From Naegleria gruberi (taxonomy: Eukaryota), in NCBI GenBank assembly GCA_000004985.1, contig GG738867.1: DNA of 64,000 nucleotides; one strand, written 5' to 3'. Made by a program: the position numbers and the translations under genes. Below, one piece after another: positions 62,048-64,000 of the stretch. The first letter of the stretch is position 1; each line of letters begins with the position of its first letter. The notes under the pieces are model-generated. The model had not been told where the DNA came from. It searched no databases and saw only the letters and a program-made list of their open reading frames with translations.

Positions 62048-64000
62048 TTAATTCTTTTTGGCAAATAGATTGGAAACTGAGGTAAAGTTACTGTTGGAAC
62101 CCTTTTTGAGTTTTGGTCTTACTGGACTGTTTAGTTTTGGATTGAGTTGATTCATTGAATTATTATTATGCGAAAGAGATGATGGATCCACATATTGTTC
62201 ATTGTTGGAAGATCCAGTAACGCTTTCCGAACTATTGCTCAAATTGTAAGTGTGGTGTTTCTCTTTGAGTAGATAGGTTTTCATTTTGCCCTTTCCTTTA
62301 ACTTCAATCTCCCTCATGTCAAATTCGAATAAATCGTGAACTCTTTCATAGGTGGCTCGTGAAATTTGCACTCTACCAGGCAAACCTGTAGATTCCATCC
62401 TTGAAGCAGTCTGTAATTTAGAATCAATTATAAAAATAATTATTAAATAATTATTGACTTACATTGACAGCATCTCCCCATAAATCCTAAAATGGAATTA
62501 TTTAAAATAATAAAATTGAAATCCATCAGTCGAAAGATGAAAACTTACGTATGCAAATTTACGTTGTCCCAAAACTCCTGCTACAACACTTCCCGTATGT
62601 AAACCAATTCTTCATAAAACTTATTGAAATTCTCATCAAATTTACAATAAACATACCTAATATTCACTGATGAACCATGATTGGCATTGTATTGTTGAAT
62701 GGCTCCAATGGCTCCTATGGCAAATTCCAGTACAAATTATCAAACCATCAACAGTTGCATCACAAATGGCTCTAAGTTCTGCTCTTCCATCATTATCAAT
62801 AGATTGTTTGGATTTCTTTCTGAACGAACGATTGAAAATGTAATTCTTTACAGGGTCAATGTTCTCTAAAATATCAGGTGGAACATTGCAAAACATGAGC
62901 ATTAAGATATTCCTTTCCCTCCATGTTCTATTCATATACTTGTTGGCATATAACATGGCCAAGATTACTAGTACCATGACTGCACATGCAATTCCACTAA
63001 CCACTCTCTCATTCACTTTCCCAATAAAATAATCGACTGCTTCCAACATAACTTTCCATGAAAGATTTCTAGTTCTTGTATATAATTCCAAATTCTTATA
63101 ATATTGATTGAGTAGAACTTGCTCAGGGAATTTCTTATTGTAAATGTCCTCAGTTTGCTTTGTAAGTAAAAAAGAGAGGGCATCCACCATTTCATCTAAA
63201 GAAAAACAATCCATCTTGCTAATAGGAATATCATAGAGTGAATAATTTCCACAACTAGTATTTGATGATTTCAAAACTTGATTGTCAATAGATGTAGTCA
63301 ACCCTACCAAATCATTGAAACCATCATCAGAGGTTCCAAATTTAAAGCCATTATATTGATCAACAACACTAAACAATTTGGAATATTCATAAAAGTCGAA
63401 TGTAGAATATTCTAAATATTTCTCGTCATCAAACATGACCTGCAGAGAGGAAAACATTGTCTTTGTTAGAGAGTGAGTCATTTCTGTACCTTTCTGAACC
63501 TTGGTAATTGCATACAAATTGTAATTATTGCTATAAACAGCTTCAAACAAGATCATAGCCAAGGAAATATAGGTCAAGACAATTGTAGAGATAATTAAAT
63601 AGATGATCATCCTGTTGGCAGCAAAAAATGGTGACTGTCTAATGAAATTCTTCATAGTTGATGTCTTGCTCTCCAATTCATGAAAAATTTTACCAACTTC
63701 ATCTCTTGGCAATAATTTGAACAATTGAATTATCTTCTTGAGTTGTCCAATGTCAAATAGTATTGTTGTAATATATACAATCGAATACAATGTGAAAAGG
63801 ACTAAAATGGTTGAAACTATTACAATAATTGTAACTTGCTTTAACTGAATGTTTTTGAAATTCTCAGCCGTTAAGGTATCACAAAAAATTTCCATCAAGT
63901 CTAAAAGACTGAAAGCGTTTTTCCAAAGAAATAAAAATTCATAATTTGCTGTTGCACTAAAGTTCTCAATGGTATAGTTTCTCACTATTTCCAATATGAA
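62048..64000 (-). pseudogene. Paralog of the 22592-25291 cyclase carrying an internal deletion (PAS plus most of the catalytic domain missing, frame not preserved). The 3' part has 3 short introns. The 5' end runs off the window
   Basis: N-terminal TM region ANYEFLFLWKNAFSLLDLMEIFCDTL parallels TNFEYIFLWKNRLLFIDYFEVFCDIL in the intact copy. ...RAELRAICDATVDGLIICTG then jumps, with a frame shift, to EFAIGAIGAIQQYNANHGSSVNIR. That segment corresponds to VRFAIDTLGVIYIYNTQNNTTVNIR in the intact copy, which lies about 230 aa downstream there. The 3' exons are R-IGLHTGSVVAGVLGQRKFAY | DLWGDAVN | TASRMESTGLPGRVQISRATYERV.... The introns are 47, 62 and 52 nt (GTATGT, GTAAGT, GTAAGT). Confidence 0.5.

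What the first reader, a model, noticed from the sequence alone, without database searches (positions are those of the whole stretch)
62048..64000. Adenylate/guanylate cyclase paralog with a roughly 230-aa internal deletion that fuses TM/PAS start to the cyclase tail out of frame
Comparing the partial minus-strand gene with the intact + copy at 22592-25291 shows that ...ICDATVDGLIICTG is followed directly by EFAIGAIGAIQQYNANHGSSVNIR. That second segment is the counterpart of VRFAIDTLGVIYIYNTQNNTTVNIR in the intact copy. The PAS domain and the metal-binding FSDIVGFT and IGDAY segments are missing. The junction shifts frame by 1, and no GT-AG intron can supply missing sequence. This looks like a recently decayed duplicate in an expanded cyclase family.
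Basis: seen in the sequence. Interest (0 to 1): 0.5.

Follow-up and report, generated by a model that had tools for sequence, protein, structure and literature searches.

The report
Recently broken Naegleria adenylate cyclase gene
This is the 3' part of a Naegleria gruberi receptor-type adenylate cyclase gene that has lost about 650 bases from its middle, out of frame, so it can no longer make a working cyclase; this is an ordinary recent gene inactivation in a large gene family, and the copy used for comparison is broken in a similar way elsewhere.

Summary
The window is Naegleria gruberi. The minus-strand gene at 62048-64000 is NAEGRDRAFT_67526 (XP_002677470.1). It lacks about 216-217 codons found in every relative: nearly all of the PAS domain, the linker, and Pfam positions 1-73 of the cyclase domain. 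That lost part carries both metal-binding Asp motifs and the substrate Lys. The two flanks are joined with one orphan G, giving a +1 shift and a stop at TAG 62659-62657. The missing segment is nowhere else in the window. GenBank's model restores the frame with a 22-nt GTACTG..AG "intron", which is implausible.

The interpretation needs two corrections. First, the duplication is old. Synonymous sites are saturated, and the N. fowleri orthologue groups with the other copy. Only the lesion is recent: no further disabling mutation, three intact tail introns, dN/dS about 0.035 in the tail, and no rate acceleration. Second, the "intact" comparator is not intact. Compared with full-length relatives of 1513-1620 aa, it lacks about 184-202 codons at 22592-22610, also out of frame, and is annotated as two genes.

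Verdict: a recently inactivated paralogue, either a pseudogene or a null allele. This is an ordinary event and of low interest.

The parts
62729..63997 (-). Open reading frame for the membrane/sensor region of the broken gene NAEGRDRAFT_67526 (423 codons visible; the gene continues beyond 64000). It corresponds to residues 728-1152 of the N. fowleri orthologue-family protein.
   Evidence: tblastn; translation. All six family-invariant residues are retained.
63749..63850 (-). Hydrophobic segment (transmembrane helix) QVTIIVIVSTILVLFTLYSIVYITTILF
   Evidence: Kyte-Doolittle scan.
63536..63613 (-). Transmembrane helix MIIYLIISTIVLTYISLAMILFEAV. The GenBank model starts at this Met.
63017..63535 (-). 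Extracytoplasmic sensor domain between two TM helices. The equivalent region of the + copy is predicted all-helical and four-helix-bundle-like. It contains the invariant Cys pair.
62936..63016 (-). Transmembrane helix VVSGIACAVMVLVILAMLYA preceding the cytoplasmic part
62729..62788 (-). Remnant of the PAS domain N-terminal cap (GRAELRAICDATVDGLIICT). Everything after it in the PAS domain is gone.
   Evidence: Alignments; PAS_9 starts at comparator residue 517.
62727..62728 (-). Deletion junction: orphan G (62728) followed by GAA (E) of the cyclase tail. The loss is about 650 nt (3n+2), giving a +1 frame shift.
62657..62728 (-). Out-of-frame read-through of the upstream frame (GICHRSHWSHSTIQCQSWFISEY) ending at stop TAG 62659-62657, the last three bases of the exon.
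   Evidence: ORF 62657..63994.
62712..62733 (-). The 22-nt 'intron' (GTACTGGAATTTGCCATAGGAG) that the GenBank/JGI model XP_002677470.1 uses to bridge the frameshift (DGLII|SIGAIQQYN). Judged to be an annotation device.
   Evidence: P0001 sequence. Homology-supported introns here and in relatives are 36-153 nt with GTAAGT/GTATGT/GTGAGT/GTAGGT donors.
62698..62721 (-). 9-nt tandem repeat x2.7 (GCCATWGGA; encodes AIGAIGAI), 6 nt from the junction. It replaces the conserved AIDTLGVI-type sequence without changing the length.
   Evidence: TRF; family alignment.
62657..62727 (-). Tail exon A (EFAIGAIGAIQQYNANHGSSVNIR), cyclase domain Pfam position ~74 onward
62610..62656 (-). Tail intron 1, 47 nt, GTATGT..AG
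62549..62609 (-). Tail exon B (IGLHTGSVVAGVLGQRKFAY)
62487..62548 (-). Tail intron 2, 62 nt, GTAAGT..AG
62463..62486 (-). Tail exon C, a 24-nt mini-exon (DLWGDAVN). It carries the adenine-specifying Asp and the transition-state Asn.
62411..62462 (-). Tail intron 3, 52 nt, GTAAGT..AG
62048..62410 (-). Tail exon D (TASRMESTGLPGRVQISR...KKN, stop TAA 62050-62048). It carries the transition-state Arg.
22592..25291 (+). Comparator ORF (899 aa; NAEGRDRAFT_49034, annotated as 857 aa): sensor region, PAS (24140-24460) and a complete cyclase domain (24581-25114). The segment absent from the broken gene corresponds to 24161-24808.
20787..22607 (+). Upstream multi-TM part of the comparator's ancestral gene: exon to 21218, intron 21219-21371, exon 21372-22607. 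It is annotated separately as orphan protein P0121.
   Evidence: tblastn of Willaertia P0125 and N. fowleri P0162; intron.
22592..22610 (+). Second lesion. About 184 codons (versus N. fowleri) to 202 codons (versus Willaertia), including a TM helix, are missing from the comparator gene, and the two flanks are in different frames (ATA of ..GRKI overlaps ATG of MVNSL.. by 1 nt).
   Evidence: The segment was not found elsewhere in the window.

Best explanation
The finding is the 3' two-thirds of N. gruberi gene NAEGRDRAFT_67526. The gene belongs to a heterolobosean family of multi-pass membrane receptor-type class III adenylate cyclases. The family architecture is: N-terminal multi-TM region, helical region, TM, ectodomain, TM, loop, TM, helical-bundle ectodomain, TM, PAS, cyclase domain. 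Full-length members are about 1500-1620 aa.

A single genomic deletion of about 650 nt (216-217 codons plus 2 nt) removed almost all of the PAS domain, the helical linker and the first 40% of the catalytic domain. The lost catalytic part held both metal-binding Asp motifs (FSDIVGFT, IGDAY) and the adenine-specifying Lys (KTIGDAY). The flanks were joined out of frame, so translation from the upstream frame stops 24 codons later at TAG 62659-62657, upstream of three introns.

Shown: the deletion, the frameshift, the stop, the loss of catalytic residues, the age of the duplication, and the absence of further decay.

Inferred: the gene can no longer make cAMP. Its transcript yields at most an output-less membrane sensor fragment or is degraded. 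The lesion is evolutionarily very recent, so this is a young pseudogene or a null allele captured by the reference assembly. The mechanism was probably end joining with little or no microhomology. The neighbouring paralogue has suffered an independent lesion of the same type at another position, which suggests ongoing attrition in this subfamily.
For: - Deletion, junction and frameshift.
- Domain loss: Pfam retains only PF00211 positions 74-182 of 183 and finds no PAS.
- Catalytic residues: the alignment of the comparator to AC9 C1 and C2 shows which residues lie in the deleted half.
- The missing segment is absent from the rest of the window.
- The family is full length in N. fowleri, Willaertia magna and other N. 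gruberi genes.
- The lesion is recent. The tail core (86 codons) has dN 0.07 against dS ~2. Relative-rate tests show no acceleration: 37 vs 39 and 5 vs 3 unique changes with the Acrasis outgroup, and 39 vs 41 and 7 vs 4 with the Willaertia outgroup. A neutral tail would carry a disabling substitution with P=0.95 by 0.078 substitutions per site. All three tail introns keep GT..AG. All family-invariant sensor residues are kept.
- The frame-restoring intron in the GenBank model is 22 nt with donor GTACTG. Homology-supported introns are 36-153 nt, and PMC8296547 gives a mean N. gruberi intron of 203 bp and used a 30-bp minimum for N. fowleri read mapping.
- A parallel lesion exists in the comparator.
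Against: - No transcript, read-level or population data could be consulted, so expression, allelic state and assembly correctness are untested.
- The complete absence of secondary lesions, together with strong conservation of both flanks, is also what continued selection on the remaining parts would produce.
- GenBank annotates the locus as protein-coding.
- The 5' part of the gene, about 730 codons by analogy with N. fowleri, lies outside the window and could not be examined.
Confidence: 0.75

Rival explanations
1. The locus still encodes a functional, non-catalytic protein. One possibility is the upstream frame alone: a membrane sensor fragment ending at TAG 62659-62657. The other is the annotated product, in which a 22-nt intron restores the frame and fuses the sensor to the C-terminal 60% of the cyclase domain. 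Either product might act as a decoy or a modulatory partner of full-length cyclases.
For: Both flanks are free of further lesions and evolve no faster than the N. fowleri or + strand genes. The tail's splice sites and the D/N/R residues are intact. GenBank model XP_002677470.1 exists.
Against: - The 22-nt GTACTG..AG intron is far shorter than every homology-supported intron seen here (36-153 nt) and lacks the usual donor.
- A cyclase domain lacking Pfam positions 1-73 has lost the N-terminal part of its fold along with both metal-binding Asp residues and the substrate Lys. It is unlikely to fold or dimerise normally.
- No relative with this architecture was found among 41 family hits.
- Conservation of an untranslated tail is explained equally well by a recent lesion.
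Confidence: 0.12
2. The deletion is an artefact of the reference assembly or of cloning, and the real genome carries an intact gene.
For: Two large out-of-frame deletions occur in otherwise pristine paralogues within 64 kb, which is somewhat unexpected. No read data could be checked.
Against: The two paralogues are too diverged for collapse or mis-joining (45% amino-acid identity, saturated synonymous sites). The junction is clean and is flanked by unique sequence apart from a 9-nt local repeat. The consensus of a multi-clone shotgun assembly would require the same deletion in most clones (inference).
Confidence: 0.08
3. The missing PAS and cyclase-N segment is supplied from elsewhere, by a distant exon, trans-splicing or an unusual intron.
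For: None found.
Against: tblastn with the missing segment from three relatives at E<=10 finds only the + strand copy. Nothing is found between 25300 and 64000 on either strand apart from noise and a weak linker-like hit at 44600-44785 inside another ORF. The gene immediately downstream, a histidine phosphatase at 60990-62000, starts 48 nt after the stop codon.
Confidence: 0.02

Closest known systems
Naegleria fowleri FDP41_008372 (XP_044557878.1, 1513 aa; CAG4714457.1, 1520 aa), 'Adenylate and Guanylate cyclase catalytic domain containing protein'
   Same: Same family and subfamily. The sensor region is 44% identical and the tail core 75% identical to the broken gene. The order of TM segments, ectodomain, PAS and cyclase domain is the same.
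   Different: It is full length and uninterrupted. It contains the 217 residues (1153-1369) missing here, and also the 184 residues (454-637) missing from the + strand N. gruberi copy (DNA confirmed on L001). It is the orthologue of the + strand copy, not of the broken gene.
N. gruberi NAEGRDRAFT_49034 (XP_002677369.1) plus the upstream orphan model P0121, window 20787-25291
   Same: It is the closest paralogue in the same genome (45% sensor region, 80-90% cyclase tail), about 37 kb away. It also carries an internal out-of-frame deletion of about 200 codons.
   Different: Its lesion lies upstream, removing the helical segment and a TM helix, so PAS and a complete cyclase domain remain in one 899-codon ORF. 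It has no introns in the cyclase region, whereas the broken gene has three.
Class III nucleotidyl cyclases with solved structures (mammalian AC9, AC8, AC5 C1/C2; mycobacterial and cyanobacterial homodimeric cyclases)
   Same: The comparator's catalytic domain aligns to AC9 C1 and C2 at E 1e-67 and carries both the C1-type metal-binding Asp residues and the C2-type Lys/Asp/Asn/Arg. That is the pattern of a homodimeric adenylate cyclase (established knowledge of class III cyclases). The broken gene keeps the Asp/Asn/Arg part.
   Different: The broken gene lacks the whole N-terminal 40% of the domain. This differs from degenerate-but-folded domains such as the mammalian C1/C2 pseudo-symmetric site, where the fold is complete.
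Young pseudogenes and null alleles in expanded sensory or signalling gene families
   Same: One disabling lesion in an otherwise conserved paralogue of a large family. At least 81 cyclases are reported for the genus Naegleria (PMC9928731).
   Different: None of substance. The only notable point is the parallel lesion in the neighbouring paralogue.
Bacterial four-helix-bundle sensor domains (4HB_MCP-type chemoreceptor and histidine-kinase periplasmic domains, e.g. 4k0d, 6s18, Tar/Tsr)
   Different: Sequence identity is 2-10%, there is no Pfam match, and generic helical bundles (talin, vinculin, designed proteins) score nearly as well. This is a resemblance, not membership.

Membership tests
Class III adenylate/guanylate cyclase catalytic domain (PF00211) | Complete catalytic domain (Pfam profile about 1-183) | tested here: not met
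   Only profile positions 74-182 match in the broken gene (E 4.8e-32). The comparator matches positions 4-182.
Class III adenylate/guanylate cyclase catalytic domain (PF00211) | Two metal-binding Asp residues (FSDIVGFT and IGDAY motifs) | tested here: not met
   Both motifs lie in the deleted segment, comparator residues 524-739.
Class III adenylate/guanylate cyclase catalytic domain (PF00211) | Substrate-specifying Lys (KTIGDAY) and Asp (FAYDLWG) | tested here: not met
   The Lys is deleted. The Asp is retained in mini-exon 62463-62486.
Class III adenylate/guanylate cyclase catalytic domain (PF00211) | Transition-state Asn and Arg (DAVNTASRME) | tested here: met
   Both are present across tail exons C and D.
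PAS domain (PF13426/PF00989) | Recognisable PAS fold sequence between the last TM helix and the cyclase domain | tested here: not met
   There is no PAS hit in the conceptual product. Only the first ~7-17 residues (…AICDATVDGLIICT) remain. The comparator has PAS_9 at residues 517-623.
Heterolobosean multi-TM sensor-PAS-cyclase family (N. fowleri FDP41_008372, Willaertia KAL9649878.1, N. gruberi NAEGRDRAFT_74371/69664) | Homologous membrane/sensor region with the conserved FLW..NR, C, LPKDxVG and Cys-pair positions | tested here: met
   phmmer E-values run from 3e-85 to 1e-10 against family members. All six invariant columns are retained.
Heterolobosean multi-TM sensor-PAS-cyclase family (N. 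fowleri FDP41_008372, Willaertia KAL9649878.1, N. gruberi NAEGRDRAFT_74371/69664) | Full architecture including the N-terminal region of about 800 residues | not testable with these tools
   The gene runs off the window at 64000, and the N. gruberi scaffold could not be fetched.
Pseudogene (non-processed, duplicated) | Clear homology to functional genes plus a disabling lesion (frameshift, premature stop, or loss of an essential domain) | tested here: met
Pseudogene (non-processed, duplicated) | Relaxed selection or accumulation of further lesions | tested here: not met
   There are no further stops, frameshifts or splice-site losses. Substitution rates are equal to those of the relatives. This is compatible only with a very recent event, or with retained function of the remaining parts.
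Pseudogene (non-processed, duplicated) | No functional transcript or protein | not testable with these tools
   No expression data were accessible, and no paper mentions the locus.

The most novel reading that the evidence does not exclude
The two neighbouring paralogues each carry an independent out-of-frame deletion of about 200 codons yet are otherwise pristine. The most novel reading not excluded is that this is not random attrition. One version is recent parallel loss of environmental-sensor cyclases in the long-cultured axenic reference strain NEG-M; this is speculation, and the strain history is from general knowledge. The other version is that the trimmed products (an output-less sensor fragment here, and a sensor-PAS-cyclase lacking its N-terminal membrane module at the other locus) are used as modulators of full-length family members.
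Probability: 0.1. Interest if true: 0.45.

Novelty: new member of a known kind. Interest (0 to 1): 0.2.

Why it matters
The main value is for annotation.
- XP_002677470.1 (NAEGRDRAFT_67526) is deposited as a protein whose reading frame depends on a 22-nt intron. It should be flagged as a probable pseudogene or null allele.
- XP_002677369.1 and its upstream 'orphan' neighbour are two halves of one disrupted gene.
- Counts of functional cyclases in N. gruberi, and 'orphan gene' tallies, are slightly inflated by such models.

Biologically this is a small, ordinary example of turnover in a very large signalling family. The parallel lesion in the sister paralogue would matter only if a genome-wide survey or strain comparison showed a pattern.

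Tried and rejected
- **Extending the 5' end beyond 64000.** The look-up of encoding contigs failed for the annotated protein, for three neighbouring window ORFs and for the comparator. No N. gruberi contig is on record. Two exact-pattern scans of metagenome contigs found nothing.
- **Third word-indexed protein search.** Using the sensor region as query, it returned only the gene itself. The exhaustive representative search was what revealed the family.
- **A real intron that restores the frame at either junction.** At 62727/8 only GT..AG spans of 19, 22 and 31 nt exist (read). All are shorter than any supported intron, and the 19-nt one creates a stop. At 22592-22610 no candidate had a consensus donor.
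- **A displaced exon.** None was found for either missing segment.
- **Recent gene conversion as the cause of the near-identical cyclase tails.** Rejected because third-codon positions are only about 50% identical and pS is 0.70.
- **The upstream 402-aa ORF as an unrelated gene.** This was considered because it has no word-indexed homologues. It was rejected after Willaertia and N. fowleri full-length proteins aligned across it.
- **Literature.** No paper mentions either locus. The Fritz-Laylin 2010 genome paper is not held.
- **Segmental duplication.** The two DUF4116-kinase genes in the window were looked at as a possible sign of one, but their arrangement relative to the cyclase genes differs. 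This was not pursued.
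Full report
**Identity of the window.** The window is 33% G+C. The conceptual product of the finding's gene matches a Naegleria gruberi 'predicted protein' at 98% identity (P0001, 459 aa). This is EFC44726.1 / XP_002677470.1 / D2VF76 / NAEGRDRAFT_67526, on a 424,055-bp scaffold. The + strand ORF at 22592-25291 is NAEGRDRAFT_49034 (XP_002677369.1, annotated as 857 aa). No paper in the searchable library mentions either locus.

**The observation.** tblastn of the 899-aa + strand ORF against the window gives three collinear minus-strand pieces:
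- residues 97-525 map to 63997..62723 (frame -1, 45% identity, E 2e-123);
- residues 739-764 map to 62733..62656 (frame -2);
- residues 764-845 map to 62611..62252.

The DNA at the join reads ATT TGT ACT G|GAA TTT GCC. That is ...DGLIICT, one orphan G at 62728, then EFAIGAIGAIQQYNANHGSSVNIR in the +1 frame. Comparator residues 524-739 (216 aa) have no counterpart, and against N. fowleri the gap is 217 aa.

Pfam finds PAS_9 (517-623) and PF00211 positions 4-182 in the comparator. In the broken gene it finds only PF00211 positions 74-182 and no PAS. The upstream frame runs on for 24 codons to TAG 62659-62657.

**Structure of the tail.** The tail is not one block. It consists of four exons: 62727-62657, 62609-62549, 62486-62463 and 62410-62048. 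They are separated by canonical GT..AG introns of 47, 62 and 52 nt, and the frame stays open to TAA 62050-62048. The + strand copy has none of these introns. A metagenomic relative (L002) has at least five short introns in its cyclase domain, at nearby but apparently not identical positions. N. fowleri has one after ENFK.

**Could the missing segment or the frame be rescued?** No sequence lies between the flanks. tblastn with the missing segment from the + copy, N. fowleri and Willaertia at E<=10 hits only the + copy. The one other hit is a weak linker-like match inside an unrelated ORF at 44600-44785. The next gene downstream, a histidine phosphatase at 60990-62000, begins 48 nt after the stop codon.

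The GenBank model reads ...DGLII|SIGAIQQYN.... It removes 62733..62712, a 22-nt GTACTG...AG span. Every intron supported by homology here and in relatives is 36-153 nt, with GTAAGT, GTATGT, GTGAGT or GTAGGT donors. PMC8296547 lists a mean N. gruberi intron of 203 bp and used a 30-bp minimum for N. fowleri read mapping. I regard the 22-nt intron as a gene-modelling device. Even if it were real, the product would lack the catalytic essentials.

**What was lost.** The comparator's catalytic domain aligns to both halves of mammalian AC9 at E 1e-67. FSDIVGFT and IGDAY align with the C1 metal-binding Asp motifs. KTIGDAY (Lys), FAYDLWG (Asp) and DAVNTASRME (Asn, Arg) align with the C2 substrate and transition-state residues. 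From established knowledge of class III cyclases, this is the pattern of a homodimeric adenylate cyclase. The broken gene keeps only the Asp, Asn and Arg. Both metal-binding Asp residues, the Lys, the linker helix and the PAS domain are gone, so it cannot be a cyclase.

**Family context.** An exhaustive HMMER search with the sensor region found 41 relatives, many of them 1500-1680 aa, with this region at about residues 820-1250. Named members are:
- N. fowleri FDP41_008372 (1513 or 1520 aa, depending on the model);
- Willaertia magna KAL9649878.1 (1620 aa), KAL9658602.1 and KAL9658648.1;
- N. gruberi NAEGRDRAFT_74371 and NAEGRDRAFT_69664.

**Age of the duplication versus age of the lesion.** Between the two window copies, synonymous sites are saturated: pS is 0.79 in the sensor region and 0.70 in the tail core. 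Sensor-region identity is 52% for the + copy versus N. fowleri. It is 45% and 44% for the broken gene versus those two. Neighbour joining groups (+ copy, N. fowleri) with 80% bootstrap. The duplication therefore predates the N. gruberi/N. fowleri split, and this is not a recent duplicate.

The lesion, by contrast, looks very recent:
- the 86-codon tail core has dN 0.07 against dS ~2;
- relative-rate tests show no acceleration: 37 vs 39 and 5 vs 3 unique changes with the Acrasis outgroup, and 39 vs 41 and 7 vs 4 with the Willaertia outgroup;
- all six family-invariant sensor residues are kept;
- there is no secondary stop, frameshift or splice-site loss.

About 5% of possible substitutions in these sequences create stops. 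A neutrally evolving tail would therefore be hit with 95% probability by 0.078 substitutions per site. That is a small fraction of the divergence between the paralogues.

**The comparator is itself broken.**
- Willaertia P0125 aligns to the window as residues 32-521 at 20922..22559 (frame +3) and residues 724-1615 at 22607..25246 (frame +2).
- N. fowleri P0162 aligns as residues 122-453 at 20946..22592 and residues 638-1518 at 22610..25252 (59.6% identity).
- Between the conserved SFWK and RYIQ motifs, five relatives have 205-237 residues. These include a conserved helical segment and a TM helix. The window has 30 residues across a frame change.
- The upstream frame ends at TGA 22605-22607, and ATA (..GRKI) overlaps ATG (MVNSL..) by one base.
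- No plausible intron restores the frame, and the missing segment is nowhere else in the window.
- N. fowleri DNA (L001) encodes the segment contiguously.

The upstream half has a good 153-nt intron at 21219-21371. It is deposited as a separate 462-aa 'orphan' protein, P0121.

**Interpretation.** The best-supported reading (confidence about 0.75) is a young non-processed pseudogene, or a null allele captured in the reference. It was created by one deletion of about 650 nt, with little or no microhomology, in an old paralogue that had been functional until recently.

A 9-nt tandem repeat (x2.7, 62698-62721) lies 6 nt from the junction. It replaces the conserved AIDTLGVI-type sequence with AIGAIGAI. 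This may be a repair scar, but that is speculation.

Three rival readings remain:
- a still-functional truncated or non-catalytic product (about 0.12);
- an assembly or cloning artefact (about 0.08);
- a distant exon or trans-splicing (about 0.02).

None of these can be fully closed without reads and transcripts, which these tools do not provide.

**Verdict.** The feature is real but ordinary: gene decay in a very large signalling family. At least 81 cyclases are reported for the genus Naegleria (PMC9928731). The practical outcome is three annotation corrections: one frame-rescuing micro-intron, and one gene split into an 'orphan' model plus a truncated cyclase model. The only mildly unusual point is that both members of this paralogue pair carry independent out-of-frame deletions of about 200 codons while being otherwise pristine.

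Noticed in passing
window 20787-25291 (+), junction 22592-22610: The 'intact' comparator is the 3' part of an ancestral gene of about 1500 aa. Compared with N. fowleri, Willaertia and other N. gruberi relatives it lacks about 184-202 codons, including a conserved helical segment and a TM helix, and the two flanks are in different frames. GenBank annotates the halves as two genes: P0121, an 'orphan' of 462 aa, and NAEGRDRAFT_49034.
   Followed up: yes
window 20787-21400 (+): The GenBank model P0121 skips a conserved exon segment (…LLYIWIILQTFSLSSYYEYRWGN…FDFMPYN) that aligns to N. fowleri and Willaertia. A canonical 153-nt intron (21219-21371, GTAAGT..CAG) joins …FMPYN to GHIVIISL… and gives a better model.
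   Followed up: partly
window 62698-62721 (-): A 9-nt tandem repeat (x2.7) encoding AIGAIGAI lies 6 nt from the deletion junction. It replaces the family's conserved AIDTLGVI-type sequence without a length change. It may be a slippage or templated-repair scar linked to the deletion, or it may be a coincidence.
   Followed up: partly
window 62411-62656 (-); L002 3780-4560; L001 8796-8847, 9872-9917, 11311-11358: Intron content of the cyclase domain differs widely among close relatives. The broken gene has three introns, including a 24-nt mini-exon. The + copy has none. A metagenomic relative has at least five, at nearby but apparently shifted positions. N. fowleri has one after ENFK. One L002 splice junction (around RKF/SYD) could not be resolved with GT..AG boundaries.
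   Followed up: partly
[not shown]
   Followed up: partly
window 17398-19815 (-) and 47495-49495 (-): Two paralogous DUF4116-repeat protein kinase genes lie in the same window as the two cyclase paralogues. Their arrangement relative to the cyclase genes differs, so there is no clear segmental duplication.
   Followed up: no
window 44600-44785 (-), inside ORF 44501-46336: There is weak similarity (E 4e-4 with the Willaertia query) between the PAS-to-cyclase linker segment and a 611-aa ORF that has no Pfam domain. It is possibly a shared coiled-coil or signalling-helix-like stretch.
   Followed up: no
P0161 vs P0162 (N. fowleri FDP41_008372 models); L001 7423-8056: The two deposited N. fowleri models of the same gene (1513 and 1520 aa) differ in two internal regions, so at least one of them has exon-boundary errors.
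   Followed up: no
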